Source of the DNA: an uncultured bacterium
GTDB taxonomy: Bacteria > Zhuqueibacterota > QNDG01 > CAYUAG01
DNA: 64,000 nucleotides
Assembly (NCBI GenBank): GCA_964554015.1
Contig: CAZKMO010000001.1
Span: 22,756 to 86,755, forward strand
Reading direction: 5' to 3'
A program made the position numbers and the translations under genes. Position 1 is the stretch's first letter. Each line of letters opens with the position of its first letter. The notes below the pieces were generated by a model. The model was not told where the DNA came from and searched no databases. It saw only the letters and a list, made by a program, of their open reading frames with translations. Positions 4,862-43,074 of this stretch are shown here, piece after piece.

Positions 4862-5701
4862 ATGAAAGCCTGGTCCAATATTGAAGTTTCATCCCAGGAC
4901 TTAGAAATAAAAAAAATAAATGAATTCGAGAAAACCCTGGGGGAGATACCAGCTCAAGTTCGGCAGATTCGTGCGTTGATAACCAGATTTGAGATATGTC
5001 ACTTTAAATATCAGCAGCATTTAAAAAAAATCAAAGATTCAATTACCAACTTAGAACCGGCCCTAAATCCTGATAAAATAGGTGAACATCATATCCAAAA
5101 GGGAGAAAATGCCTGGAAAAAGGATAAAACCGGACGCAGTCTGCTGGGTCAGCAATATCTGTGGTCATTAATTAATTGGCTGGGAGATGATCCTGAAGTA
5201 ACCAAAAAGCATAATTATAAAAAGGATCTTAGTCAAAAAATTAAGCAATGGCTGGGAGATAAAAACCCTGATAAGCAAAGATTAGTCCGTTTATTAATAG
5301 CCAGATTGACCTGGGACTGGAATTCCTATGAAAAACTGCGGTCCGGGGGGCAAAATAAGGAACTTGAATTCCAAGCCTGCAGAATGGACATATGTCATCA
5401 TGCTTTTCCGGAACATCTCAATTCTTTGCTGCAGGCAATGGGAGTAATGAAACCGTTTAAAAATTTTGCGGGATGTGGAACCTATAATGAGGAAATCAAA
5501 AAAAATATTAAAAAGGAATTATCACAATTGTTCACTAGGTTGAAATCTAAAACCCTATCTCCTAAAAATAATACTTTGAATCGGAAAGAACACCTGGAAA
5601 CCTGGCTGTTAGCTTGTCTGGTAAAAACCATGAAAGAACAAATTGGGCTGACCAAATCTTTACCTGGATATTTTCGAGTAAAAGGAGGTATAAAAAAATG
5701 A
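4862..5701 (+). CDS. Hypothetical Lys-rich protein of 279 aa with no recognisable domain.
   Basis: This is a long ORF in a compact operon context. Its 3' end overlaps the GH88/105 gene start. There is no signal peptide. Confidence 0.35.
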   Translation: MKAWSNIEVSSQDLEIKKINEFEKTLGEIPAQVRQIRALITRFEICHFKYQQHLKKIKDSITNLEPALNPDKIGEHHIQKGENAWKKDKTGRSLLGQQYLWSLINWLGDDPEVTKKHNYKKDLSQKIKQWLGDKNPDKQRLVRLLIARLTWDWNSYEKLRSGGQNKELEFQACRMDICHHAFPEHLNSLLQAMGVMKPFKNFAGCGTYNEEIKKNIKKELSQLFTRLKSKTLSPKNNTLNRKEHLETWLLACLVKTMKEQIGLTKSLPGYFRVKGGIKK

Positions 5702-6822
5702 ATATAAAAAAACTAGTGGGTAATATGAGGGTCTTCTGTTTCTACCTCTTATTAATAATATTTTCAGCCGGATTCTTTGGGTGCAAAGAATCCAGTTCAT
5801 GGGAAAATAAAATTTTGAGAACCAAAGACACTTCACCTGAGACAATCGGAAGAATGGTCATTAATGATTTGTTGAATAGACCAGATTTAATGATGTATGT
5901 AACCGATTTCTGGACCGGCGTTCATTATGCGGAAGCCTGTGCCGGCTTCGGGGCAGCCCGGTTAGCCGGTCTTTTAAAGGACTCGCATAGTATGGACAGA
6001 TTGACTGCCCGCTACAACAAAGTAATCCAAGACAGTCTGGTAAAGGATGCAAATCATGTGGACGCCAATGTATACGGCATACTGCCGCTGGAATTGTACC
6101 TGCAAACCGGTCAGGAAAAATTCCTGCAGCAGGGGCTTGCTCTGGCTGACCAACAGTGGGAAGACACCCTGTCCAATGGACTGACCAGCCAGGTGCGTTA
6201 CTGGATCGATGATGTCTGGATGATCGGCAGTCTGCAGGTTCAGGCCTACCGAGTTACAGATAATGAAAAATATCTGGAAAGAGCTGCTAAAACTGTGGAA
6301 TCCTATCTTGAAAAATTACAGCAGCCCAATGGTTTGTTTTACCATGGAGAAAACGCTCCTTTTTTCTGGGGAAGAGGAAACGGCTGGGTGGCGGCAGGAA
6401 TGGCTGAACTTTTATCCCAACTGCCGGAAAGCAATCCCCATTATGCCTCCATTGTATCAGGCTATCAAAAAATGATGCATGCCTTACTGGAATATCAGGC
6501 TGACGATGGCATGTGGCGGCAGTTGATCGATAAAAAAGAGGCCTGGAAAGAGACCTCCTCCACTGCCATGTTTGGCTATGCTGTAACCGTGGGGGTTAAA
6601 AAGGGTATTTTATCCGACTCCACCTTTACTCCGGTGTATGAGAAAGCCTGGAAGGCCTTGACAGGATATATCAATCCACAGGGAAAAGTGACCAATGTCT
6701 GTGTAGGTACGGGTAAAAACAATAATATGGATTATTATCTCAATCGTCCCCGTACCACCGGGGATCTGCACGGTCAGGCTCCGGTACTCTGGTTTGCTTA
6801 TAGTCTGTTAGCCGAATATTAA
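5698..6822 (+). CDS. Glycosyl hydrolase family 88/105-like protein (unsaturated glucuronyl/rhamnogalacturonyl hydrolase-like), secreted.
   Basis: ATG 5698 is preceded by AAAGGAGG, so the ORF-track start at 5614 is likely too long. There is a signal peptide. The motifs WIDDVWMIG and GRGNGWVAAGMAEL are typical of the YteR/UGL fold. Confidence 0.55.
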   Translation: MNIKKLVGNMRVFCFYLLLIIFSAGFFGCKESSSWENKILRTKDTSPETIGRMVINDLLNRPDLMMYVTDFWTGVHYAEACAGFGAARLAGLLKDSHSMDRLTARYNKVIQDSLVKDANHVDANVYGILPLELYLQTGQEKFLQQGLALADQQWEDTLSNGLTSQVRYWIDDVWMIGSLQVQAYRVTDNEKYLERAAKTVESYLEKLQQPNGLFYHGENAPFFWGRGNGWVAAGMAELLSQLPESNPHYASIVSGYQKMMHALLEYQADDGMWRQLIDKKEAWKETSSTAMFGYAVTVGVKKGILSDSTFTPVYEKAWKALTGYINPQGKVTNVCVGTGKNNNMDYYLNRPRTTGDLHGQAPVLWFAYSLLAEY

Positions 6823-6860
6823 ATTCTGAACTGTAATAATAAATAAAAGGGGAAATATAA

Positions 6861-7082
6861 ATGCTGTGTCCAAAATGCGGGCAGGAAAATCCTGATAATG
6901 CCGGGCAATGTTCGAATTGTTTCTATAAATTCAGATTCGGAAACGCCTTTAATGATCCCAAGAATATGACCTTTGTCACCCCTGGTAAATCAAAAGAATC
7001 AAAAATTGCCCAATATATATTTTTCTCAATACTGTTATTCCTATTTATTTTAATTATAGTATCATGGATTAAATCTCTTTAA
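6861..7082 (+). CDS. Small zinc-ribbon membrane protein.
   Basis: A CPKCG...CSNC zinc ribbon is followed by a C-terminal TM helix (FFSILLFLFILIIVSWI). A GGGGA RBS is present. Confidence 0.45.
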   Translation: MLCPKCGQENPDNAGQCSNCFYKFRFGNAFNDPKNMTFVTPGKSKESKIAQYIFFSILLFLFILIIVSWIKSL

Positions 7083-7176
7083 ATCATCACATACTGATCA
7101 AAATAAACATGAGTAATATATTATACGTAGTTTTGGTACAATTATTATATAAAAACTAAAAAACATATCATTTATT

Positions 7177-7680
7177 ATGAAAAATTTTATAATAAAAACA
7201 GCTAGCAATTTCAACGACGCTATAATTATTTCTCAACATATCTCAGATATATGGAAAGATAAGGTTGATCATGACTACTATATGAAAATGTATAATCATA
7301 TTACAAAATTTAGGGAAGGATATCTTATAGGATACTTGACACATAAGCCGGTGGCTTCTTCCCTGGCCTTTCCCATAGGCCGCATACCCAGTTTGGAGGA
7401 AATTAACCAGGGAAATATATTTGACTTTTTCGATAAGCAGGCAAAATATTACTACATTCATATTATACAGGTTATAGATACTATGAGAAATAAAGGATTT
7501 GGTATTAAATTATTAAGATATCAGATCAATACGGCTCAAAAAAATAAATACAAGGAAATCGTTGGTATGGCAATTGATCGAGAGTTAGCATTATGGAAAA
7601 AATGCGGCTTCAGAGATTTCGGTGAATTCGGAATCTATAAACATTACGGAAGAATGAAATGGGTGAAGATGCCGATATAA
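7177..7680 (+). CDS. GNAT-like N-acetyltransferase (divergent).
   Basis: A Gly-rich segment before an acetyl-CoA-binding-like region (NKGFGIKLL...KCGF) is present. The gene is adjacent to a clear GNAT paralog. Confidence 0.4.
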   Translation: MKNFIIKTASNFNDAIIISQHISDIWKDKVDHDYYMKMYNHITKFREGYLIGYLTHKPVASSLAFPIGRIPSLEEINQGNIFDFFDKQAKYYYIHIIQVIDTMRNKGFGIKLLRYQINTAQKNKYKEIVGMAIDRELALWKKCGFRDFGEFGIYKHYGRMKWVKMPI

Positions 7681-7737
7681 ACCACTACTAAAAATAATAA
7701 AATTAAAAAAATATCATTAAGGAGCAACTTATACATT

Positions 7738-8259
7738 ATGACTCTTTGCACAAAAGTTCAAAATAATCCTCAAATAGAAACAGTGGCTCGTTTAGCCAAA
7801 ATAATCTGGACAGAACATTTCAATGAAATGATCGGACCGGAAGCCGTTGCCTACATGATCGAAACCTTCCAGTCGAAACCGGCAATAATCAAACAAATAA
7901 AAGAACAGGGCTATACCTACTATTTGATACAGCCTGGCCAGAAAGCAATCGGCTATGCAGGGATCTGTTTGAATAAAGAAAAGGATGAACTGTTTGTAAG
8001 TAAATTGTATTTGCTTTCCTCCCAGCGGGGAAAGGGGTATGGAAAGCAGGTAATGCAGTTTCTGGAAAATATGGCCAGAAAACATCAAGTCAGTAAAATC
8101 AGTTTAACCGTCTATCATAAAAATACAACTGCTATTCAGGCTTATAAAAAAATGGGATTCCGGCACACCGGCTCCATTAAACGTGATATTGGCAAGAATA
8201 TTATAATCCATGATTATACTATGGAAAAACAAATTCTATCAGAGGAAAGTATTAAATAA
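7738..8259 (+). CDS. GNAT family N-acetyltransferase.
   Basis: The motif QRGKGYGKQVMQFLENMA...AIQAYKKMGF is a classic GNAT motif A/B. Confidence 0.7.
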   Translation: MTLCTKVQNNPQIETVARLAKIIWTEHFNEMIGPEAVAYMIETFQSKPAIIKQIKEQGYTYYLIQPGQKAIGYAGICLNKEKDELFVSKLYLLSSQRGKGYGKQVMQFLENMARKHQVSKISLTVYHKNTTAIQAYKKMGFRHTGSIKRDIGKNIIIHDYTMEKQILSEESIK

Positions 8260-8356
8260 AAATATTCACCCTTCAGAACTGATGAGTAAAAGTAGAGTTT
8301 AATCTTATATCCGAATTAAATATATTCATTTTTACAAGGAGTAAATTATAAAACTT

Positions 8357-9679
8357 ATGACTCAAAAATATAACCATAATATTACCGCAACGGAAACAGA
8401 AAAAATTATGCAAGTTTCTGCCCGGGAGGTATTAAGTAACCTTGAGAATCAAAATGTAAAAATCATCGACGTCCGCTCAGTTAATGCCTACAATGGGTGG
8501 AGGGAACAAAACGAGGTTCGAGGCGGGCATATTAAAGGAGCCAAAAGCCTGCCTGCCAAATGGACAGAATATATAGACTGGATTGAAATAGTACGCTCTA
8601 AAAACATCTCTCCCCGGCATTCCCTAATTATATACGGCTATGATAAGGGCAAGACCGAAAAAGTTGCTCAGCTTTTTCAACGGTCAGGATATAAAAAAAT
8701 AAAAGTGTTTCAAAATTTTGTTCAGGAATGGAGTTCTAATGAAGACTATCCTATGCAAAGATTAGCCCGATACCGCCATTTAGTATCAGCTAAATGGCTC
8801 CATCAACTTATCAACGAAGGAACAGCCCCGGAATTTGATAACCAAAAATATGTACTCTGTCATGCCCATTACCGCCATAAGGAAGACTACCGGAAAGGGC
8901 ATATCCCGGGTGCAGTCGATGTTGATACCAATACCCTGGAATCAACTGAGACCTGGAACCGCCGTTCTCCCCAGGAAATTAAAAAAACTTTGGAAAATTT
9001 GGGTATAAGTCATGATACAGCCGTAATTTTATACGGAAGATTCTCTTTCCCTGACAGCCAGGATGCTTTTCCAGGCAGCAGTTCAGGACATCTGGCAGCT
9101 TTTCGCAGTGCTTTTATTATGCTGTATGCAGGAGTACGGGATATACGCATACTTAACGGGGGCTTGCAATCCTGGTTAGATGAGAAGTTTGACCTTTCCA
9201 CCCAAGAAGTAAAGAAACAACCAGTTTCAGAATTTGGCATAGAAATTCCTGCTCACCCGGAATATGCCGTTGGCTTGGCTGAGGCAAAAGAAATTTTACA
9301 AGCCAAAAACAAAAATCTGGTATGTATGCGAAGCTGGCGGGAGTATATCGGAGAGGTAAGTGGTTATAATTATATTGAAAAAAAGGGAAGAATACCCGGG
9401 GCTGTTTTTGCCAACTGCGGCAGCGATTCCTATCATATGGAAAACTACAGGAATCCTGATCACACTACCCGGGAATATCATGAAATAGAGGAAAATTGGG
9501 CAGAAGCAGGAATAACTTCTGACAAGTTCAATGCCTTTTATTGCGGTACCGGATGGAGGGGGAGTGAAGCTTTTTTTAATGCCTGGTTTATGGAGTGGCC
9601 ATCCATAGCCTTATTTGACGGGGGATGGTTTGAATGGAGCAACAATAATTATCCCTTTGAAACCGGAATTCCCGAATAA
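8357..9679 (+). CDS. eanB: Rhodanese-domain sulfurtransferase. It is a candidate EanB-type hercynine sulfurtransferase of the anaerobic ergothioneine pathway.
   Basis: Multiple rhodanese-like modules are present. A C-terminal active-site loop FYCGTGWRGSE (Cys-X5-Arg type) is present. The gene is immediately followed by an EgtD-like methyltransferase. Confidence 0.55.
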   Translation: MTQKYNHNITATETEKIMQVSAREVLSNLENQNVKIIDVRSVNAYNGWREQNEVRGGHIKGAKSLPAKWTEYIDWIEIVRSKNISPRHSLIIYGYDKGKTEKVAQLFQRSGYKKIKVFQNFVQEWSSNEDYPMQRLARYRHLVSAKWLHQLINEGTAPEFDNQKYVLCHAHYRHKEDYRKGHIPGAVDVDTNTLESTETWNRRSPQEIKKTLENLGISHDTAVILYGRFSFPDSQDAFPGSSSGHLAAFRSAFIMLYAGVRDIRILNGGLQSWLDEKFDLSTQEVKKQPVSEFGIEIPAHPEYAVGLAEAKEILQAKNKNLVCMRSWREYIGEVSGYNYIEKKGRIPGAVFANCGSDSYHMENYRNPDHTTREYHEIEENWAEAGITSDKFNAFYCGTGWRGSEAFFNAWFMEWPSIALFDGGWFEWSNNNYPFETGIPE

Positions 9680-9691
9680 AAAAAGGTAACA

Positions 9692-10681
9692 ATGAATATT
9701 TCTGAACGTATACCAAAAATTGAAATACGTAACTTTTTACCCAATCAAGGATTTGCAGTACAGAGAAATAAAATCCTTCGCGGACTGACTGGCAGGAACA
9801 AATATATCTCCAGCATTTTTTTCTATGATGATACAGGATCAAAACTTTTTGAACAAATAACCAGGCTTCCTGAATATTATCCTCCCCGGAAAGAAATGCT
9901 ATTACTTAAAAAAATTACCTCCCTGATTAAAAATGAACTAAAAGATATTGATATAGTTGAATTGGGAAGCGGTGACTGCTCTAAAATTTCCATTCTTTTA
10001 AAATCCGTCCCTCCCCATTTTAGAAAAACCATTCGTTACCTTCCTTTTGACGTATCTATGGGAACGATTGAAAAATCAGCAAAAACACTTGTAAAAAAAT
10101 TCCCCTATATTACCATCCTGGGTATTGTAGCAGATTTTCACACTCAGCTCCATTTAATTCCCCGGGAGAGAAAACGCATATTCTGTTTTTTCGGCAGTAC
10201 AATTGGAAATTTTACTCCTCCCAAAGCGGAAGAATTCATAAGTAATCTGAACAATATCATGAATCCGGGAGAAATGCTGTTACTCAGTTTTGACCTGGTA
10301 AAAGAAAAAGATATTCTGGAAAAAGCATACAATGACAGTCAAAAAATAACTGCAAAGTTTAATCGTAACATTTTAAATGTTGCCAACAGATATGCAAAAA
10401 CCAATTTTGATCCTCAAGACTTTCAGCACCTGGCATTTTATAACCCTCAATGCTCCCGAATTGAAATGCACCTTAAGGCTAAAAGAGACATTACCATTAA
10501 CTCCCCCTATTTAAATCAGAGCAGTATCATCAATAAGGGAGAAACCATCCATACTGAATATTCTCACAAGTTTGCTTTGAATACCATTCAAGCTCTGGTT
10601 GAGGGCAGTCAGCTTACCATTCAAAATATTTTTACTGATAAAAAAAAATGGTTTGCAGTAAGCCAACTCATTAAACAATGA
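9692..10681 (+). CDS. egtD: L-histidine N-alpha-methyltransferase (EgtD/EanA family).
   Basis: The motif FFYDDTGSKLFEQITRLPEYYPPRKE matches the EgtD signature (F-Y-D-x-x-G-S-x-L-F-E-x-I-x-x-L-P-E-Y-Y-P-T-R). The methyltransferase motif ELGSGDCSKI is present. Confidence 0.75.
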   Translation: MNISERIPKIEIRNFLPNQGFAVQRNKILRGLTGRNKYISSIFFYDDTGSKLFEQITRLPEYYPPRKEMLLLKKITSLIKNELKDIDIVELGSGDCSKISILLKSVPPHFRKTIRYLPFDVSMGTIEKSAKTLVKKFPYITILGIVADFHTQLHLIPRERKRIFCFFGSTIGNFTPPKAEEFISNLNNIMNPGEMLLLSFDLVKEKDILEKAYNDSQKITAKFNRNILNVANRYAKTNFDPQDFQHLAFYNPQCSRIEMHLKAKRDITINSPYLNQSSIINKGETIHTEYSHKFALNTIQALVEGSQLTIQNIFTDKKKWFAVSQLIKQ

Positions 10682-10690
10682 AATTCATAT

Positions 10691-11908
10691 ATGTATGATA
10701 TAAATAAAATTCGGGCTGATTTTCCTATTCTGGGGGAAAAAATCTATGATAAGCCATTAGTTTATCTTGATAATGCCGCCACTACCCAAAAACCCCAAAA
10801 GGTGCTTGATGCCATATTCGAATTTTATTCCTCTATAAACAGTAACATTCACCGGGGTGTCCACTTCCTTAGTGAGCAAGCAAGCACTGCTTATGAAGAG
10901 GCAAGAGAAACGGTAAAAAAATACATAAATGCGAAAAAAATTTCAGAAATAATATTTACCCAGGGAACCACTGACTCAATAAACATGGTGGCTGACTCTT
11001 TTGGGAGGGCATGTATAAACCAAGGAGATGAAATTATTATTTCTGAGATGGAGCATCATTCCAATATAGTGCCCTGGCAAATGCTTGGTGAGCATAAGGG
11101 TGCAGTTCTCAAGATAATTCCTATTAACCAAGATGGAACTCTCAACCTGAAAAGATTAAAAACGCTCATTACTGACAAAACCAGACTTATTGCAGTGACC
11201 TATGTATCTAATGTATTGGGAATTATATATCCGGTTAAGAAAATTATCGACGTAGCCCACCTGCGGAATATACCGGTACTGATCGATGGCGCCCAGGCAG
11301 TTCAGCACCGCCCGGTCGATGTTCAAAGTTTAGACTGTGATTTTTTTGCCTTTTCCGGACATAAAATGTATGCCGGAACCGGAATAGGAGTTTTATATGC
11401 CAAGCAAAAATGGCTGGATACCATGCCTCCTTACCGATATGGCGGAGGTATGATTTCCAGCGTAAATTTTGAAAAAACCTCATTTCTAAAACCGCCCCAT
11501 AATTTTGAAGCAGGCACTCCTAATATTGCCGGGGCAGTAAGTCTTAAGGCAGCAATTGAATATATAAATTATATTGGATTAAAAAACATTACTGACCAGG
11601 AAATGAAATTATATAATTATGCCCTGAATAGGCTTAGCCGGTTGCCGGGACTAACTGTATATGGAAAAGCAGAAAACAGGTGTGGAGCACTATCATTTAA
11701 TTTGCATGACATTCATCCCTATGATGCTGGCTCCCTACTGGATAAAATGGGGATTGCCGTGCGCACCGGCAAGCATTGTGCCGAACCCTTAATGAACCGA
11801 TTCAAAATACAGGGATCCATTCGGGCCAGCTTTGCTATGTATAATAATAAACAAGAAGTTGATATTTTAATAGACGGAATAAAAAAAGTACAGCAAATGC
11901 TAAAATAA
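10691..11908 (+). CDS. sufS: Cysteine desulfurase, SufS/CsdA group II (PLP-dependent).
   Basis: The N-terminal DFPIL...YLDNAATTQKP is present. The PLP lysine lies in FSGHKMYAGTGIGVLY. The catalytic Cys loop RTGKHCAEPL is present. Confidence 0.8.
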   Translation: MYDINKIRADFPILGEKIYDKPLVYLDNAATTQKPQKVLDAIFEFYSSINSNIHRGVHFLSEQASTAYEEARETVKKYINAKKISEIIFTQGTTDSINMVADSFGRACINQGDEIIISEMEHHSNIVPWQMLGEHKGAVLKIIPINQDGTLNLKRLKTLITDKTRLIAVTYVSNVLGIIYPVKKIIDVAHLRNIPVLIDGAQAVQHRPVDVQSLDCDFFAFSGHKMYAGTGIGVLYAKQKWLDTMPPYRYGGGMISSVNFEKTSFLKPPHNFEAGTPNIAGAVSLKAAIEYINYIGLKNITDQEMKLYNYALNRLSRLPGLTVYGKAENRCGALSFNLHDIHPYDAGSLLDKMGIAVRTGKHCAEPLMNRFKIQGSIRASFAMYNNKQEVDILIDGIKKVQQMLK

Positions 11909-11910
11909 CC

Positions 11911-12318
11911 ATGAATATTAATAACATTCAGGATCAAATCATAAAAGAATTTTCCGGTTTAGATGACTGGCTGGATAAATATGAACATCTGATTAAATTA
12001 GGAAAATCCCTTAAAATTTCCGATATGGATTTGAAGAAAGAAGAATATCAAATACCAGGATGTCAATCTAACCTTTGGATTAATGTAGAAAAGAGAAATA
12101 ATAAACTATTTATCGCCGCAGACAGCGATGCCCTCATAACCAGAGGAATCATATCTTTATTGCTCAGGGTTTTAAATAATCAATCACCTGATGATATTGT
12201 AAATGCTGATCTCTATTTTATAGATAAAATCGGATTAAGCTCCCACCTCTCACCCACCCGGGCCAATGGCTTGGCATTAATTGTAAAGACGATTAAATCC
12301 CTGGCCCAGAACGGTTAA
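11911..12318 (+). CDS. sufE: SufE-like sulfur acceptor protein.
   Basis: The length of about 135 aa fits the family. The conserved Cys loop IPGCQSNLWI is present. The gene immediately follows sufS. Confidence 0.7.
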   Translation: MNINNIQDQIIKEFSGLDDWLDKYEHLIKLGKSLKISDMDLKKEEYQIPGCQSNLWINVEKRNNKLFIAADSDALITRGIISLLLRVLNNQSPDDIVNADLYFIDKIGLSSHLSPTRANGLALIVKTIKSLAQNG

Positions 12319-12345
12319 GGTTAAAAATAAAAAAGGAGATGCTAT

Positions 12346-13029
12346 ATGCAACCTAAAGCTCTACTGATTGGAAACTCCGATGGCATTGGATTAGCAACAA
12401 CCAGAAGACTACTCCTAACCGGATGGAAAATCATGGGTGTATCCAGAAGTAAATCACCCCTATCCAACAAAACCTATATTCACCGGATCGCTGATGTGAG
12501 CAAAAGCAACTACTCAGAACTGATTAAAGAATTGACACAAAAAGGTCCATTTGATCTGTGTATTTACTTTGCAGGAATCGGAAAACTGTTTGATTTCACC
12601 AATATGAATCCTGAACCAAAAGTTATAGAGGTGAACCTAACCGGAATGGTCAAAACCGCAGCTGCAGTCATACCCCCTATGGTTACTAAAGGACAGGGAC
12701 ACTTCATTGGTATTTCCAGCGTGGCTGATGAATTACTCTCAGCCGAGGCGCCTTCTTACCACGCCTCCAAAGCAGGCTTTTCCCATTATCTGGAGAGTCT
12801 GGCCTTGGCTTTGAAAAATACGGGTGTACAGGTTACCAATGTCCGGTTAGGATTTGTAGATACAAAAATGGCAAAAGGTGAAGTTAAACCCTTTATGATA
12901 AGTATTGAAAAAGCAGTTGACCATCTGATGAAGTGCATCAAAAAGAAACCTGTCCGTTACACAGCACCAGGCATTATTGTACCATTGGTAAAGTTTCGTA
13001 AAGTACTGATAAAATTAAGAGGAGAATAA
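12346..13029 (+). CDS. Short-chain dehydrogenase/reductase (SDR) family oxidoreductase.
   Basis: The N-terminal Rossmann segment LLIGNSDGIGLATTRRLL is present. The catalytic residues YHASKAG (YxxxK) are present. Confidence 0.6.
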   Translation: MQPKALLIGNSDGIGLATTRRLLLTGWKIMGVSRSKSPLSNKTYIHRIADVSKSNYSELIKELTQKGPFDLCIYFAGIGKLFDFTNMNPEPKVIEVNLTGMVKTAAAVIPPMVTKGQGHFIGISSVADELLSAEAPSYHASKAGFSHYLESLALALKNTGVQVTNVRLGFVDTKMAKGEVKPFMISIEKAVDHLMKCIKKKPVRYTAPGIIVPLVKFRKVLIKLRGE

Positions 13030-13032
13030 CGT

Positions 13033-14124
13033 GTGATGCAAAAAACAAAAATAATTAAGTATTTTTATCTGGTTAGAGTATGTATCATAATTGGTTTACT
13101 AAACATAAGTATTACTATTAATTGCTCGAAAAATCCTGCTTCATCAGAAAATAAGGGAAATCGACTCGAGTATGTTGACCCTGAAGAGGTTGGTTATTCA
13201 TCTGAAAAACTCAACCTGGCAAAACAATTTGCAGAACAAAGCGGCTATGCTGCCGTAATGGCACTATGTGAAGGAAAAGTGTTCTTTTCCTGGGGTGAGA
13301 TAACTAAGAATTATTTATGCCATTCTATCAGAAAGCCATTTTTAAGTGCACTTTACGGTATTTATGTTGAGCAGGGTACTATCAACCTCGATGCAACCCT
13401 GGAAGAGCTAAATATTGATGATATCTCCCCCAGCCTGACTGAGGCTGAAAAACAAGCAACCGTAAGAGATTTATTGAAATCCCGCTCCGGTGTCTATCAT
13501 GAAGCTGCTTCGGAAGATCCTGTCATGATTGCAACCCGCCCGGAACGAGGAAGCCATCCTCCGGGCACTTTCTATTATTATAATAATTGGGATTTTAATG
13601 TACTGGGTACCATTTTTGAACAAGAAACCGAAACCAAGATATTCGAGGAATTCAACAACAAGATAGCCGGGCCTGTGGGTATGGAAGATTTTGCGATTGA
13701 AAACTGTTATTATAAGTATGAGATGGAAAAATCCCAGCATCCGGCCTATCATTTCAGGATGAGTGCAAGGGATATGGCAAGATTCGGGGTACTGTATCAA
13801 AAAAATGGAATGTGGAAGGAAAACCGGATAATTTCCCGTGCCTGGATTGATGAAAGTACAACCGCCTATTCACCTGTAGATAGCGCTTCCGGTATAGGGT
13901 ATGGGTATATGTGGGATGTTTTCCCGGAAGGTTCCTTAATAGCCACTCTAATCGGTTATTCAGGCTATTATCATACCGGCGTAGGTGTTCATGTCTTAGT
14001 GATTGTACCAGAACTAAATTTAGTACTGGTGGAACGGTACGATACAGACAGCGATTGGATTGATCCCGGAGAAGTAGGCATAGAGCTGGGGTTGATGATA
14101 ATAAATTCCCGTATAACTAACTAA
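13033..14124 (+). CDS. Beta-lactamase-family serine hydrolase (lipoprotein or secreted).
   Basis: There is a signal peptide. An SxxK motif (HSIRKPF) is present. The tail is rich in YxN/Gly, as in penicillin-binding-fold esterases. Confidence 0.5.
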   Translation: MMQKTKIIKYFYLVRVCIIIGLLNISITINCSKNPASSENKGNRLEYVDPEEVGYSSEKLNLAKQFAEQSGYAAVMALCEGKVFFSWGEITKNYLCHSIRKPFLSALYGIYVEQGTINLDATLEELNIDDISPSLTEAEKQATVRDLLKSRSGVYHEAASEDPVMIATRPERGSHPPGTFYYYNNWDFNVLGTIFEQETETKIFEEFNNKIAGPVGMEDFAIENCYYKYEMEKSQHPAYHFRMSARDMARFGVLYQKNGMWKENRIISRAWIDESTTAYSPVDSASGIGYGYMWDVFPEGSLIATLIGYSGYYHTGVGVHVLVIVPELNLVLVERYDTDSDWIDPGEVGIELGLMIINSRITN

Positions 14125-14181
14125 AGACTAATTTCTATTTAAACCAAAGATTCCTTATTTCTTAAAAAAGGGAGTATATCA

Positions 14182-14649
14182 ATGAGTAATCTTTTATATG
14201 TTCTGTTAATTTCGGCTGTAATATTCTGCACCTGTGTTGAAAATAAAAATTCGGAAGACCTTGCCCTTCAGGCAATCCAAGAACTGCATGCAAAAGATAA
14301 GGTTGCTTCTTTTCAAGGTGATATAAGGACCTTATTGTCTCTCTTTGCAGAGGATGGTATAGTGATTCCAGCGGAAGGTGAAATTATTAGAGGAAAAGAG
14401 GGGCTAAAAAAAATGCTGGAAAAAAATTTTAAAGACCAGAAAGACTATACGTTGATAGAATATAAGCATGATTTTAAAGAAATAAAAGTTATGGGTGAAT
14501 ATGCCTATGAATGGGGTCTATACAGTGGCGCCTATAAATCCAAAAAAAATGATAAAATATTAACCGGAAGCGGTAAACTGATGAGAATATTAAAACGACA
14601 AAAAGATGGAAGTTGGAAAATATCAAGATCGATTTGGACTGTTGATTAA
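14182..14649 (+). CDS. DUF4440/SnoaL-like (NTF2-fold) protein, secreted.
   Basis: There is a signal peptide. The C-terminus GSGKLMRILKRQKDGSWKISRSIWT is typical of the DUF4440 fold. Confidence 0.45.
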   Translation: MSNLLYVLLISAVIFCTCVENKNSEDLALQAIQELHAKDKVASFQGDIRTLLSLFAEDGIVIPAEGEIIRGKEGLKKMLEKNFKDQKDYTLIEYKHDFKEIKVMGEYAYEWGLYSGAYKSKKNDKILTGSGKLMRILKRQKDGSWKISRSIWTVD

Positions 14650-14950
14650 TAACATACAGTTTAATAACCGATAATAAAATCTTAAAAGCAAATTTAGCAG
14701 TAATAGTATCGTTTTGATTTCATTCAGAGGGAATATTTCATTGGGAAAAAATTGAAATAATATACGTAAGTCAAAAATCTTATTAAAAAAATATCTGTGA
14801 AAATATATTTTTGGGGAACTTTAAAAAAATTTCTAACGTTAAATGATGGGTATTATTTAATAAAAATTATTAAATAAGTAAGAATACTTAGTAATGGAAG
14901 TTATTAAATATAAGATTTTTTAGAGTAAATAAGCTCATTAAAGGCAATAT

Positions 14951-17561: not shown

Positions 17562-18521
17562 ATGCAGAATGAAAATATAAAATTAAAAAATCCCATATCT
17601 CGAAGAGCCTTTCTGGAATACTCGGCCAAATTGGGGAGTGCCCTAACCGCAGGGATGCTTTTCCCAGGATTGCCATCAGAAAGCATCCCCTTATCCCCTT
17701 CTTCACCAGTAGTGGCTGTAGTTAAGGGAACCCCCCCCAACGCAGTCAGCAAAGCCATCGAGCTGGTGGGGGGGATAGGCAGTTTCGTACAACCTGGCAG
17801 TACAGTACTGATTAAACCCAATGTATCTTTTCCTAATTCCAAAACCTGGGGAACCACTACCAGCCCGGAAGTTGTAAAAGCTGTTACCCAGCTTACCCTG
17901 GATGCTGGTGCCCAAAGAGTAATCATTGCAGATAATACCATGCGTAAAACCGATATCTGTTTCCATAAAACTGGTATAATGGAAATGCTTTCTAATATGG
18001 ATAAGGTAAACATCATTCCCATACAACAGGAAAATTTTTTCAGGGAAGTTCCGGTTCCCGGGGGAAAAGCACTCACCAAGGTGAAAATAGCCAAGCTTAT
18101 CCAGCGAGCTGATTTGATTATCAATCTGCCCTGTGCCAAATCTCATTCAGCCACTCAGGTAAGTTTTGGTTTGAAAAACCTGATGGGACTAATCTGGGAT
18201 AGAAGTTATTTACATCAGGGAACTGATCTGCATACTGCCATTGCTGAACTGGCTTTGATAATGCAACCCCAGCTTACCATACTGGATGCCACTCGTGCCC
18301 TGATAACTGCCGGCCCTACCGGTCCGGGCAAAGTGCAGAATTTGAACACCATTGTAGCTAGTACTAATATCTTGGCTGTGGATGCCTATGCCGTAGGCCT
18401 GGCACCCTGGAATAATCGTTTTCTGACCGCAAAAACAGTTAAACATCTTTACCGGGCTTCCCAATTAGGAATTGGAGAGATAAATATTGATAATATGATC
18501 ATCCGCAAAGCTATCCTCTAA
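17562..18521 (+). CDS. DUF362-domain protein with a Tat signal peptide. It is a paralog of 14951..16861.
   Basis: The Tat-like signal ISRRAFLEYSAKLGSALTAG is present. The core VVKGTPPNAVSKAIELVGGIGSFVQPGSTVLIKPNVSF...GLKNLMG aligns with the upstream paralog. Confidence 0.55.
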   Translation: MQNENIKLKNPISRRAFLEYSAKLGSALTAGMLFPGLPSESIPLSPSSPVVAVVKGTPPNAVSKAIELVGGIGSFVQPGSTVLIKPNVSFPNSKTWGTTTSPEVVKAVTQLTLDAGAQRVIIADNTMRKTDICFHKTGIMEMLSNMDKVNIIPIQQENFFREVPVPGGKALTKVKIAKLIQRADLIINLPCAKSHSATQVSFGLKNLMGLIWDRSYLHQGTDLHTAIAELALIMQPQLTILDATRALITAGPTGPGKVQNLNTIVASTNILAVDAYAVGLAPWNNRFLTAKTVKHLYRASQLGIGEINIDNMIIRKAIL

Positions 18522-42015: not shown

Positions 42016-43074
42016 CTAAAATCCGAGACTAAGAGAAAATCTCATGGTATCAGAGAGGGGATGTCCTTTTTCAGCAGCCACATAAGCAAAATCAAACCTG
42101 TAGGTATTATATTGAAGACCGGCACCAAAGGTAGGAAACTTTACTTTGCCAATTTCATCATAATAGTAGCCGGTTCTTAAAAATATCATATCACTATAAA
42201 CATATTCTAATCCCATACAGGTAATAAGCTCTTGCAATTGTTCATCTATGGGTTTATCTGTCCAACTGGTAAAAATGGCTTTATAAAAAGCATCCGATTC
42301 ATTCCCTTTCTTGACTACCATAAGTTTATTAGTATCAAGAGTTAAAGTTAGTCTATTATATTTTTTATCCAAGACTTTGTAGGCAAATCCCAATTTTAAA
42401 TTTGTCGGCAAGGGATCTGCTTGGGCAGCATCAACATAAGCTATTTTGGGGCCCATATTGGCAAGATTTGCTCCAAATGATAATCCTTTGATAAATCCAA
42501 TTTTCCAGAGAACTCCCACATCAAAAGCAAAGGCATTACCAGAACCACTGCCCTTCTCGGTTCCGACATCAACCCAATCAGGAGCAAGCATACTTTGGAT
42601 GTAACGTACATTAACACCCAATCCAACATTATCGGTTACCTTGGTTGCATACCCCAGGGTTATAGCAAAATCATAACTTTGGAATCTGCCTCTTTCTTCC
42701 CCGGTTTCACCTGTCCATACCTGCTCTCCCATATTCAGATAGGTAACATTAGCAGCGATAGTCCCTCCCAAGCTCTCCACATAATGCCGGTAAGAAGCAA
42801 ATTCATAAAACATATCATCAACTAATCCCGGAAGCCATTTACAATGCATAAAAATAATCTCTTTACCTTTCAGAAAGGCAAGTCCACCCGGATTCCAATA
42901 TATGGCTGTTGCATCATCGGCAAGGGCTACAAATGATTCTCCCATACCCGAAGCCCGGGCTCCTGGTGAAATTAATAGAAACAGCACCGCAGCTTCACTT
43001 ACAGCAAATACATTAGATGCCATAATCAAGCTAAATACGAAAACCAATAAAATTATTGTTAATTTTTTCATCAA
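42016..43074 (-). CDS. FadL/OMPP1-family outer-membrane beta-barrel protein. It may be a T9SS PorV-like shuttle.
   Basis: There is a signal peptide. The N-terminal hallmark GARASGMGESFVALADDATAIYWNPGGLAF is present. It ends in aromatic ...SLGF. It is adjacent to T9SS cargo genes. Confidence 0.5.
   Translation of the reverse strand: MMKKLTIILLVFVFSLIMASNVFAVSEAAVLFLLISPGARASGMGESFVALADDATAIYWNPGGLAFLKGKEIIFMHCKWLPGLVDDMFYEFASYRHYVESLGGTIAANVTYLNMGEQVWTGETGEERGRFQSYDFAITLGYATKVTDNVGLGVNVRYIQSMLAPDWVDVGTEKGSGSGNAFAFDVGVLWKIGFIKGLSFGANLANMGPKIAYVDAAQADPLPTNLKLGFAYKVLDKKYNRLTLTLDTNKLMVVKKGNESDAFYKAIFTSWTDKPIDEQLQELITCMGLEYVYSDMIFLRTGYYYDEIGKVKFPTFGAGLQYNTYRFDFAYVAAEKGHPLSDTMRFSLSLGF

What the first reader, a model, noticed from the sequence alone, without database searches (positions are those of the whole stretch)
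8357..12318. Candidate anaerobic ergothioneine cluster with its own sulfur-mobilisation module (eanB-eanA-sufS-sufE)
Four tightly spaced co-directional genes have intergenic gaps of 12, 9 and 2 nt. They encode a multi-rhodanese sulfurtransferase with a C-terminal CGTGWR active-site loop, an EgtD-signature histidine N-methyltransferase, a group-II cysteine desulfurase, and SufE. The EgtD-like methyltransferase plus rhodanese sulfurtransferase pairing is the hallmark of the oxygen-independent EanA/EanB route to ergothioneine. A SufS/SufE pair in the same operon, with no sufBCD nearby, suggests a dedicated Cys-to-persulfide relay. That relay would feed sulfur to the hercynine sulfurtransferase. 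This sulfur donor has not been firmly established in vivo.
Basis: partly seen in the sequence, partly recalled or inferred. Interest (0 to 1): 0.7.

Follow-up and report, generated by a model that had tools for sequence, protein, structure and literature searches.

The report
Anaerobic ergothioneine operon with SufS/SufE
These four genes encode the known oxygen-independent route to the antioxidant ergothioneine (EanA/EanB) plus a cysteine desulfurase and its sulfur carrier (SufS/SufE), and this cassette recurs in distant bacteria and archaea, which points to cysteine as the natural sulfur source for a reaction whose in-cell donor is still debated.

Summary
Four co-directional ORFs lie at 8357-12318 with gaps of 12, 9 and 2 nt.

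- **ORF1 is EanB.** It scores 597 bits over its full length against Chlorobium limicola EanB, versus 262 for YnjE and 79 or less for TST/MST rhodaneses. Tyr353, Cys412, Thr414 and Arg417 are all conserved.
- **ORF2 is EanA.** It passes the curated EgtD equivalog model and keeps every EgtD histidine-binding residue checked.
- **ORF3 and ORF4** are a type-II SufS and a SufE, with catalytic Lys/Cys and Cys51 intact.
- **No sufBCD** occurs anywhere in the 64 kb window.

The new result is comparative. Of 70 distinct metagenomic EanB loci, 24 carry sufE and/or sufS directly next to eanB, in five gene orders. Another 15 lack them and 31 contigs are too short to tell. The same four-gene order occurs in Aminicenantes, Omnitrophica, cultured Anaerohalosphaera lusitana and two archaeal contigs. 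All four sampled close SufS relatives sit in ergothioneine clusters. C. limicola EanB groups with the unlinked loci.

The best reading is a Cys→SufS→SufE→EanB sulfur supply. Whether SufE hands sulfur to EanB directly is unproven. No readable paper links EanB with SufE. I class it as a new variant of a known pathway, of moderate-to-high interest.

The parts
8260..8356 (+). Upstream intergenic region of 97 nt, with an AAGGAG ribosome-binding motif and a probable promoter region for the operon
   Evidence: Sequence read. The sigma-70 consensus scan is not informative (40 sites versus 30.7 expected). There is no Rfam match.
8357..9679 (+). eanB: three-rhodanese-domain ergothioneine synthase (hercynine sulfurtransferase). 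Catalytic residues are Cys396, Tyr337, Thr398 and Arg401.
   Evidence: phmmer against PDB gives C. limicola EanB 6ktv/6h98 at E=1.9e-178 and 597 bits over the full length; YnjE scores 262 bits and TST/MST 79 or less. Y353/C412/T414/R417 equivalents are invariant in 90 EanB sequences, apart from one Lys at R417. Pfam finds three Rhodanese stretches.
9692..10681 (+). eanA: EgtD-type SAM-dependent L-histidine N-alpha-methyltransferase, which makes hercynine (trimethylhistidine)
   Evidence: TIGR03438 egtD equivalog scores 343.7 bits against a cutoff of 290.9. PF10017 gives E=2e-100. The PDB EgtD alignment and the locus alignment show Y45, F53, Y62, N173, Y213, T220, M259, E289 and S291, which correspond to MsEgtD Y39, F47, Y56, N166, Y206, T213, M252, E282 and S284.
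10691..11908 (+). sufS: type-II (SufS/CsdB) PLP-dependent cysteine desulfurase. PLP Lys225 and persulfide Cys363 lie in the RTGKHCA motif.
   Evidence: TIGR01979 SufS scores 583.6 bits against a cutoff of 475.1. E. coli SufS 1i29 scores 466 bits, with K226, C364, H123/H124 and R379 aligned. These residues are invariant in 22 ean-linked SufS sequences.
11911..12318 (+). sufE: persulfide acceptor and carrier with Cys51 in the GCQS loop
   Evidence: PF02657 scores 140.6 bits. E. coli SufE 1mzg aligns with Cys51 matched. G50-C51-Q52 is invariant in 33 ean-linked SufE sequences.
12346..13029 (+). Short-chain dehydrogenase/reductase, probably co-transcribed (27-nt gap with a GGAG motif, no terminator). 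It is not part of the conserved core.
   Evidence: Pfam adh_short; junction read. A homologous SDR lies downstream of sufE only in the closest relative, L083. It is absent from the other loci.
13033..14124 (+). Beta-lactamase-fold protein, co-directional and 3 nt after the SDR stop codon. It is not conserved with the cassette.
   Evidence: PF00144 at 85.5 bits. No tblastn hits in the other loci.

Best explanation
The locus is an operon for oxygen-independent ergothioneine biosynthesis that carries its own sulfur supply. EanA trimethylates L-histidine with SAM to give hercynine. SufS, using PLP, takes sulfur from L-cysteine as a persulfide on Cys363 and passes it to Cys51 of SufE. SufE then supplies that sulfane sulfur to Cys396 of EanB. 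EanB inserts the sulfur at C2 of the hercynine imidazole, with Tyr337 as the acid/base catalyst, to give ergothioneine.

What is shown here: the gene identities, the intact catalytic residues, and the recurrent co-inheritance of eanB with sufE and sufS. What is inferred: that SufS/SufE feed EanB. What is inferred more weakly: that the last hand-over is a direct SufE-to-EanB protein persulfide transfer and does not go through a small-molecule persulfide or polysulfide.
For: Gene identities and catalytic residues.

Tight spacing with no internal terminator.

Recurrence in an EanB-seeded sample: of 70 distinct metagenomic EanB loci, 24 have sufE and/or sufS directly next to eanB. The orders are eanB-eanA-sufS-sufE (9 loci, plus 3 cut off inside sufS), eanB-sufS-sufE (3), eanB-sufE (7) and eanA-eanB-sufE (2). 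All gaps are under about 150 nt.

Same four-gene order in distant lineages: an unclassified MAG (L083), a complete Ca. Aminicenantes genome (L085), a complete Thermoplasmatales archaeon genome (L086), cultured Anaerohalosphaera lusitana (L087), Omnitrophica (L088), L089 and a second archaeal contig (L093).

Reverse test: 4 of 4 sampled close SufS homologues (61-73% identity) lie in ergothioneine clusters, and at least 18 of the 120 listed share a contig length with EanB hits. A Bacteroidales SufS in a non-ean context is more distant, at 57%.

No SufB/C/D was found in the window or in any of the seven Pfam-annotated four-gene loci.

Distance matrices of EanB, EanA, SufS and SufE correlate, with r=0.69-0.83 and Mantel p about 5e-4.

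Precedent from the literature: IscS plus cysteine supports EanB in vitro (PMC9103826), and the unrelated ergothioneine synthase MES is fused to an obligatory cysteine desulfurase with a persulfide relay (PMC9516567).
Against: There is no biochemical evidence here. Published work, as summarised in PMC9103826, argues that polysulfide is the direct EanB substrate. The reasoning is that Cys412 lies at the end of a ~13 A tunnel that the IscS persulfide could not reach, and the same objection could apply to SufE.

I could not check whether the source genome has a second, housekeeping sufS/sufE, so 'dedicated' is not proven. A Bacteroidales SufE in a housekeeping-type context (next to FeS_assembly_P, no eanB) is 59% identical to the window SufE, as close as many ean-linked SufEs. 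SufE therefore does not form an ean-exclusive clade.

Fifteen EanB loci with enough flank lack sufSE, so the module is not obligatory for the family. The split between linked and unlinked EanB lineages has no bootstrap support as an exact bipartition (3 and 23 of 100). The 80 loci analysed are those most similar to the query, so the frequencies are not family-wide estimates.
Confidence: 0.7

Rival explanations
1. SufS/SufE do serve ergothioneine synthesis, but indirectly. They generate a local pool of low-molecular-weight persulfide or polysulfide from cysteine. That small molecule, not SufE itself, enters the EanB tunnel and persulfidates Cys396.
For: In vitro, polysulfide is the best EanB sulfur source. 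The IscS effect was reinterpreted as polysulfide/S8 formation, with Cys412 buried behind a ~13 A tunnel (PMC9103826; PMC9516567 Fig. 1 legend). The active-site residues of the window EanB are identical to those of the C. limicola enzyme.
Against: SufE normally shields the persulfide and passes it only to specific partners (established knowledge of the SUF system). The most frequent minimal unit is eanB-sufE without sufS (7 loci plus L084 and L092), which suggests a specific EanB-SufE partnership more than bulk polysulfide production. No natural EanB-SufE fusion appeared among the top 120 hits of either protein, so there is no direct evidence for physical contact either.
Confidence: 0.25
2. The SufS/SufE pair is the organism's general cysteine desulfurase system for Fe-S clusters, tRNA thiolation and similar needs. 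It sits next to eanBA only because both belong to a shared oxidative-stress or iron regulon, with no sulfur transfer between them.
For: Ean loci are often flanked by stress genes: peroxiredoxin, thioredoxin-like, bacterioferritin, DJ-1, rubrerythrin and Fur. SUF is classically the stress-responsive Fe-S system (established knowledge). A housekeeping-type Bacteroidales SufE is as similar to the window SufE as some ean-linked ones. L090 has MnmA about 5 kb from sufSE.
Against: No SufB/C/D scaffold was found in the 64 kb window or in any annotated four-gene locus. The adjacency survives rearrangement into five gene orders and transfer between bacteria and archaea. All four sampled members of the closest SufS group are in ergothioneine clusters.
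Confidence: 0.12
3. The cassette makes a different product. One option is selenoneine, through the selenocysteine-lyase activity of SufS-type enzymes. Another is a thiolated heterocycle other than ergothioneine.
For: SufS/CsdB enzymes are annotated as, and active as, selenocysteine lyases (PDB names). Some eanB-sufE pairs have no eanA within up to 10 kb. Leisinger and co-workers suggested EanB-like enzymes may sulfurize other heterocycles (cited in PMC9516567).
Against: The window encodes a bona fide EgtD-type histidine methyltransferase with the His-specific residues Met259 and Glu289. The EanB active site is invariant. An attempt to make selenoneine with EanB was reported as unsuccessful (PMC9103826).
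Confidence: 0.03

Closest known systems
EanA/EanB anaerobic ergothioneine pathway of Chlorobium limicola (Burn et al. 2017; structures 6H98, 6KTV)
   Same: The same two enzymes are present. EanB aligns over its full length at 597 bits with identical Tyr353, Cys412, Thr414 and Arg417. EanA passes the EgtD equivalog model. eanB and eanA are adjacent.
   Different: Here, and in at least 24 other distinct loci, the pair is joined to sufS and/or sufE. C. limicola EanB groups with loci that lack them. The C. limicola neighbourhood itself was not inspected. The published pathway is described as two genes, with polysulfide or added IscS as the in vitro sulfur source.
MES, the metallopterin-dependent ergothioneine synthase of Caldithrix abyssi (Beliaeva & Seebeck 2022, PMC9516567)
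   Same: It is an oxygen-independent ergothioneine route. A dedicated PLP cysteine desulfurase extracts sulfur from cysteine and relays it as protein persulfides to the hercynine-sulfurizing site. It is co-encoded with an EgtD-type methyltransferase.
   Different: MES uses an IscS/NifS-type desulfurase fused to a Mo/W-pterin catalytic module. Here the desulfurase is a separate type-II SufS with a separate SufE carrier, and the C-S bond-forming enzyme is a rhodanese.
SufS-SufE of the E. coli SUF Fe-S assembly system (and CsdA-CsdE)
   Same: It has a type-II desulfurase fold with the catalytic Lys and Cys, and a SufE with Cys51. The two genes are adjacent, 2 nt apart.
   Different: There is no SufBCD scaffold in 64 kb. 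The inferred acceptor is a rhodanese. The E. coli equivalog models are not passed: SufS NF006791 scores 522.7 against 661, and SufE PRK09296 scores 95.3 against 160.
Cysteine desulfurase to rhodanese sulfur relays (IscS to ThiI, IscS to YnjE, NFS1 to MOCS3)
   Same: A desulfurase persulfide is passed to a rhodanese-domain cysteine. YnjE is the nearest non-EanB structural relative of this protein, at 262 bits. That these relays exist rests on established knowledge and was not tested here.
   Different: Those relays use type-I IscS directly and end in cofactor or tRNA thiolation. Here a type-II SufS with a SufE intermediary is implied, and the end product is a small-molecule thione.

Membership tests
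EanB (anaerobic ergothioneine synthase) | Full-length similarity to characterised EanB that exceeds similarity to YnjE and to TST/MST rhodaneses | tested here: met
   597 bits against 6ktv/6h98, 262 against YnjE, and 79 or less against TST/MST. The best NCBIfam hit, 3-MST, scores 79.6 against a cutoff of 250.
EanB (anaerobic ergothioneine synthase) | Catalytic Cys412 in the CGTGWR loop, plus Tyr353, Thr414 and Arg417 | tested here: met
   The window residues are C396, Y337, T398 and R401. They are invariant in 90 sequences, apart from one Lys at R417.
EanB (anaerobic ergothioneine synthase) | Three tandem rhodanese-like domains | tested here: met
   Pfam PF00581 matches three stretches.
EanB (anaerobic ergothioneine synthase) | Hercynine-to-ergothioneine activity | not testable with these tools
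   This needs an enzyme assay or LC-MS.
EanA / EgtD histidine N-alpha-methyltransferase | Passes the curated equivalog model | tested here: met
   TIGR03438 scores 343.7 bits against a cutoff of 290.9. The EasF model is below its cutoff, at 179.5 against 205.55.
EanA / EgtD histidine N-alpha-methyltransferase | His-binding and His-specificity residues (MsEgtD Y39, F47, Y56, N166, Y206, T213, M252, E282, S284) | tested here: met
   All are conserved in the window protein (alignment; positions). The residue list comes from my own knowledge of the EgtD structures.
SufS (type-II cysteine desulfurase) | Passes the SufS subfamily model; PLP Lys and catalytic Cys in the RTGxHCA motif | tested here: met
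   TIGR01979 scores 583.6 against 475.1. K225 and C363 align with E. coli K226 and C364.
SufS (type-II cysteine desulfurase) | Equivalog of E. coli SufS (NF006791) or CsdA | tested here: not met
   522.7 against a cutoff of 661, and 414.9 against 607. It is a member of the SufS subfamily but not an E. coli-type equivalog.
SufE persulfide acceptor | SufE domain with the conserved Cys51 loop | tested here: met
   PF02657 scores 140.6 bits. Cys51 aligns with E. coli SufE Cys51. The NCBIfam SufE equivalog is not passed, at 95.3 against 160.
SUF Fe-S cluster assembly operon | SufB/SufC/SufD scaffold encoded with SufS/SufE | tested here: not met
   No such Pfam families in about 50 window ORFs, nor in L083, L085-L089 or L093.
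EgtE (aerobic-pathway C-S lyase) | Passes TIGR04343 | tested here: not met
   66 bits against a cutoff of 400.
Family 2A encapsulin cargo cysteine desulfurase | Passes NF041166, including the N-terminal cargo region | tested here: not met
   589 bits against a cutoff of 800. Only model positions 225-622 are matched, meaning the catalytic domain alone.
MES (metallopterin ergothioneine synthase) | Metallopterin-binding module fused to a desulfurase | tested here: not met
   ORF3 is 405 aa with class-V aminotransferase-type domains only. No molybdopterin-enzyme domain appears in the window scans.

The most novel reading that the evidence does not exclude
A large lineage of EanB enzymes, distinct from the characterised C. 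limicola type, is physiologically loaded by SufE-persulfide through a direct protein-protein relay (Cys to SufS to SufE to EanB). eanB-sufE would be the functional core, and the four-gene cassette moves horizontally between Bacteria and Archaea. If so, cysteine and not environmental polysulfide is the in vivo sulfur donor for anaerobic ergothioneine synthesis in most carriers. SufE would also gain a role outside Fe-S assembly, as a donor to a rhodanese that forms a C-S bond on an unactivated carbon.
Probability: 0.4. Interest if true: 0.7.

Novelty: new variant of a known kind. Interest (0 to 1): 0.6.

Why it matters
EanB catalyses an unusual reaction: direct replacement of an aromatic C-H bond by C-S without oxygen. 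Its physiological sulfur donor is unsettled. IscS plus cysteine works in vitro, but this was reinterpreted as polysulfide chemistry. A conserved, horizontally shared eanB-eanA-sufS-sufE cassette gives a concrete genetic hypothesis for the in vivo donor.

It also identifies a cultured carrier, Anaerohalosphaera lusitana, in which the idea can be tested. For engineered anaerobic ergothioneine production, it suggests that co-expressing the cognate SufS/SufE could remove the sulfur-supply bottleneck. Finally, it would extend SufE's known clients beyond Fe-S scaffolds.

Tried and rejected
- **Genome scan.** The genome-contig scan with the single EanB protein returned only one short Spirochaetaceae contig (L001) with no useful context.
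- **Clade test.** I tested whether sufSE-linked EanBs form one clean clade. The exact bipartition was absent from the corrected-distance NJ tree and had 3/100 and 23/100 bootstrap support. Linked loci fall into one or two blocks depending on the distance method used, and in the second tree a small unlinked clade sits between the two linked blocks. I therefore claim only strong clustering of the trait and not monophyly.
- **SufE exclusivity.** SufE as an ean-exclusive clade is rejected. A Bacteroidales housekeeping-type SufE is 59% identical to the window SufE.
- **Regulatory signals.** There is no Rfam hit at E of 1 or less in 6800-14800. Sigma-70 promoter and terminator scans were at background level.
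- **Other roles for the desulfurase.** EgtE, encapsulin-cargo and E. coli-equivalog assignments all fall below their cutoffs.
- **Flanking genes.** The upstream GNATs (7177-8259) and the downstream beta-lactamase-fold gene are not conserved with the cassette. The SDR recurs only in the closest relative.
- **Fusions.** No EanB-SufE fusion appeared among the top 120 hits of either protein.
- **Specificity positions.** Positions that separate linked from unlinked EanBs lie mostly in the middle domain. I could not map them onto a structure, so I drew no conclusion.
- **Literature access.** Cheng et al. 2020 and 2021 could not be opened. Burn 2017 and Leisinger 2019 were not retrieved. An earlier mention of sufSE neighbours in those papers cannot be excluded.

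Full report
**Observation**

The ORF list shows four co-directional ORFs on the + strand: 8357-9679 (440 aa), 9692-10681 (329 aa), 10691-11908 (405 aa) and 11911-12318 (135 aa). Reading the junctions confirms gaps of 12, 9 and 2 nt. A 97-nt upstream gap contains an AAGGAG motif. A short-chain dehydrogenase follows after 27 nt, and a beta-lactamase-fold gene comes 3 nt after that. The consensus scans show no terminator-like site between the genes and are otherwise at background level. There is no Rfam match at E of 1 or less.

**Gene identities**

- **ORF1 (EanB).** It has three Pfam rhodanese stretches. Against all PDB sequences its best match is Chlorobium limicola EanB (6ktv/6h98), at E=1.9e-178 and 597 bits, aligned end to end. 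The next relative is the three-domain rhodanese YnjE at 262 bits. Ordinary thiosulfate and mercaptopyruvate sulfurtransferases score 79 bits or less. The Y353F mutant chain in the PDB list fixes the numbering offset. With that offset, the window residues Tyr337, Cys396, Thr398 and Arg401 correspond to EanB Tyr353, Cys412, Thr414 and Arg417. They are invariant across 90 EanB sequences, apart from one Lys at the Arg position.
- **ORF2 (EanA).** It passes NCBIfam's EgtD equivalog model, at 343.7 bits against a cutoff of 290.9. It retains all the EgtD substrate-binding residues I checked, including Met and Glu at the positions that set histidine specificity. That residue list comes from my own knowledge of the EgtD structures.
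- **ORF3 (SufS).** It passes the SufS subfamily model, at 583.6 against 475.1. It aligns to E. coli SufS at 466 bits with the PLP lysine, the RTGxHCA cysteine and the His-His motif in place. It is not EgtE (66 against 400) and not an encapsulin cargo desulfurase (589 against 800, catalytic domain only).
- **ORF4 (SufE).** It is a SufE-family protein with Cys51 conserved.

Pfam scans of about 40 further ORFs covering the 64 kb window found no SufB, SufC or SufD. The wider context includes a type IX secretion system, glycoside hydrolases, GS/GOGAT and lysine biosynthesis genes. The source is an unclassified bacterial MAG.

**Comparative evidence starting from EanB**

A metagenome scan seeded with an EanB alignment returned 80 loci. 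I searched them with the window proteins and removed near-duplicates at 97% identity. Of the 70 distinct loci:

| Arrangement | Loci |
|---|---|
| eanB-eanA-sufS-sufE | 9 |
| Same order, contig ends inside sufS | 3 |
| eanB-sufS-sufE | 3 |
| eanB-sufE | 7 |
| eanA-eanB-sufE | 2 |
| No sufS/sufE, with at least 1.5 kb of flank | 15 |
| Contig too short to decide | 31 |

All gaps in the linked loci are under about 150 nt.

Context look-ups of named EanB homologues show the identical four-gene order in three places: an unclassified MAG (L083), a complete Candidatus Aminicenantes genome (L085) and a complete Thermoplasmatales archaeon genome (L086). A Caldithrix MAG carries eanB-sufE (L084).

**Comparative evidence starting from SufS and SufE**

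The 120 closest SufS homologues are 61-73% identical to the window protein. At least 18 of them share a contig length with EanB hits. I deliberately sampled four that did not share one, and all four lie in ergothioneine clusters:

- cultured Anaerohalosphaera lusitana, with fur-eanB-eanA-sufS-sufE (L087);
- an Omnitrophica MAG (L088);
- an ENA contig (L089);
- an eanA-sufS-sufE variant with no eanB in view (L090).

Of three sampled SufE homologues, one is an eanB-sufE pair (L092) and one is a second archaeal four-gene cassette (L093). The third is a Bacteroidales housekeeping-type sufE next to an FeS_assembly_P gene (L091). The Bacteroidales SufS on that contig is 57% identical to the window SufS, below the ean-linked group.

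None of the annotated four-gene loci contains sufBCD. The pairwise distance matrices of EanB, EanA, SufS and SufE are correlated, with r=0.69-0.83 and Mantel p about 5e-4. That fits inheritance as a unit, although shared species history would also contribute.

**Phylogenetic distribution**

In neighbour-joining trees of 90 EanB sequences, sufE/sufS-linked loci fall into one or two contiguous blocks, depending on the distance method. Within those blocks, every unlinked locus except L005 is a contig that ends before sufSE could appear; L005 is itself too short to decide. The characterised C. limicola EanB falls among the unlinked loci.

An exact linked/unlinked bipartition is not supported (3 and 23 of 100 bootstraps). 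In the second tree a small unlinked clade sits between the two linked blocks, and it shares the linked group's residues at discriminating positions. I therefore claim only that the trait is strongly clustered and deep: linked EanBs are as little as 52-55% identical to one another.

**Mechanism**

The best-supported reading has three steps:

1. EanA makes hercynine from histidine and SAM.
2. SufS abstracts sulfur from cysteine onto Cys363 and passes it to SufE Cys51.
3. SufE supplies EanB Cys396, whose persulfide sulfurizes C2 of hercynine.

The gene functions rest on homology to characterised enzymes with intact active sites. The SufSE-to-EanB link rests on conserved gene neighbourhood across rearrangements and across domains of life. 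The direct SufE-EanB hand-over is inference.

The direct hand-over faces a published objection. EanB Cys412 lies behind a ~13 A tunnel, and polysulfide is the best in vitro donor (PMC9103826; PMC9516567). One counter-argument rests on established SUF knowledge and was not tested here: SufE is built to insert its Cys51 loop into the recessed active site of a type-II desulfurase.

The main sub-rival is that SufSE generate a small-molecule persulfide or polysulfide that then enters the tunnel. The housekeeping or co-regulation rival is weakened by the absence of sufBCD and by the archaeal cassettes. It is not excluded, because I could not search the carrier genomes for a second sufS.

**Comparison with known systems and novelty**

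EanA/EanB is a known pathway, and this locus is a clear member. A dedicated cysteine desulfurase in anaerobic ergothioneine synthesis is also known in principle from MES, where it is fused to a metallopterin enzyme.

What appears unreported is the SufS/SufE module joined to EanB. No paper in the searchable library contains both 'EanB' and 'SufE'. The 'ergothioneine' plus 'SufE' or 'SufS' hits are unrelated. Reviews up to 2026 describe a two-gene pathway using polysulfide, EanB's own persulfide, or added IscS.

One caveat applies. Cheng et al. 2020 and 2021 could not be opened, and Burn 2017 and Leisinger 2019 were not retrieved. I class the finding as a new variant of a known kind, of moderate-to-high interest, because it makes the in vivo sulfur-donor question directly testable, including in a cultured organism.

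Noticed in passing
L090:5911-8652 (Logan SRR21360042 contig, 46.9 kb): This locus has an eanA-sufS-sufE unit flanked by AhpC and DJ-1, with no rhodanese or EanB in the 15 kb seen. Two neighbouring proteins (370 aa and 558 aa) have no Pfam hit. EanB may be encoded elsewhere, or a different sulfurizing enzyme may be used.
   Followed up: partly
L086:6364-6648, and cluster c4 in 14 loci including L010, L024, L026, L027, L039, L047, L052, L055, L059, L063, L076, L077: A ~94-aa DUF427 protein (PF04248, 113.8 bits) recurs immediately next to eanB/eanA, in both sufSE-linked and unlinked loci and in the Thermoplasmatales archaeon. Its function is unknown, and it may be an unrecognised accessory of the pathway.
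   Followed up: partly
L022, L036, L084:869-2748, L092:4662-6411: These loci carry eanB-sufE pairs with no eanA within the available flanks (up to 10 kb). EanA may be encoded elsewhere, hercynine may be imported, or these EanBs may act on another substrate.
   Followed up: no
L085:11025-12401; L086:1112-1648 and 11112-13608; L087:3871-4380; L088; L090; clusters c6, c8, c9, c11: Ean clusters are repeatedly flanked by redox and iron-stress genes. Examples are a pyridine-nucleotide disulfide oxidoreductase directly after sufE in Aminicenantes, rubrerythrin, a CDGSH protein, a rubredoxin-TPP enzyme, Fur, peroxiredoxin, thioredoxin-like proteins, bacterioferritin and DJ-1. This hints at a stress regulon and possibly an ergothioneine-disulfide reductase.
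   Followed up: partly
window:7177-7680 and 7738-8259: Two tandem GNAT acetyltransferase genes lie directly upstream of eanB and run in the same direction. They also appear on the identical contig L002 but were not found next to eanB in the other loci searched.
   Followed up: partly
window:12346-13029; L083:9440-11449: An SDR follows sufE after 27 nt. In the closest relative (L083) a homologous 227-aa SDR is also downstream, but it is separated from sufE by an FMN_red gene and a 126-aa protein with no Pfam hit. It may be a lineage-specific add-on.
   Followed up: partly
window:19081-22773 and 4862-5701: A 1230-aa ORF and a 279-aa ORF have no Pfam match at E of 1e-5 or less.
   Followed up: no
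window:14951-16861 and 17562-18521: There are two DUF362 proteins. The first carries two near-identical internal repeats of roughly 90 aa (…VTQGE.VKVNWS.WPGKVNIALYK.GTFW…) and a FlgD_ig-type C-terminal region, consistent with a type IX secretion cargo. PorV lies at 42016-43074.
   Followed up: no
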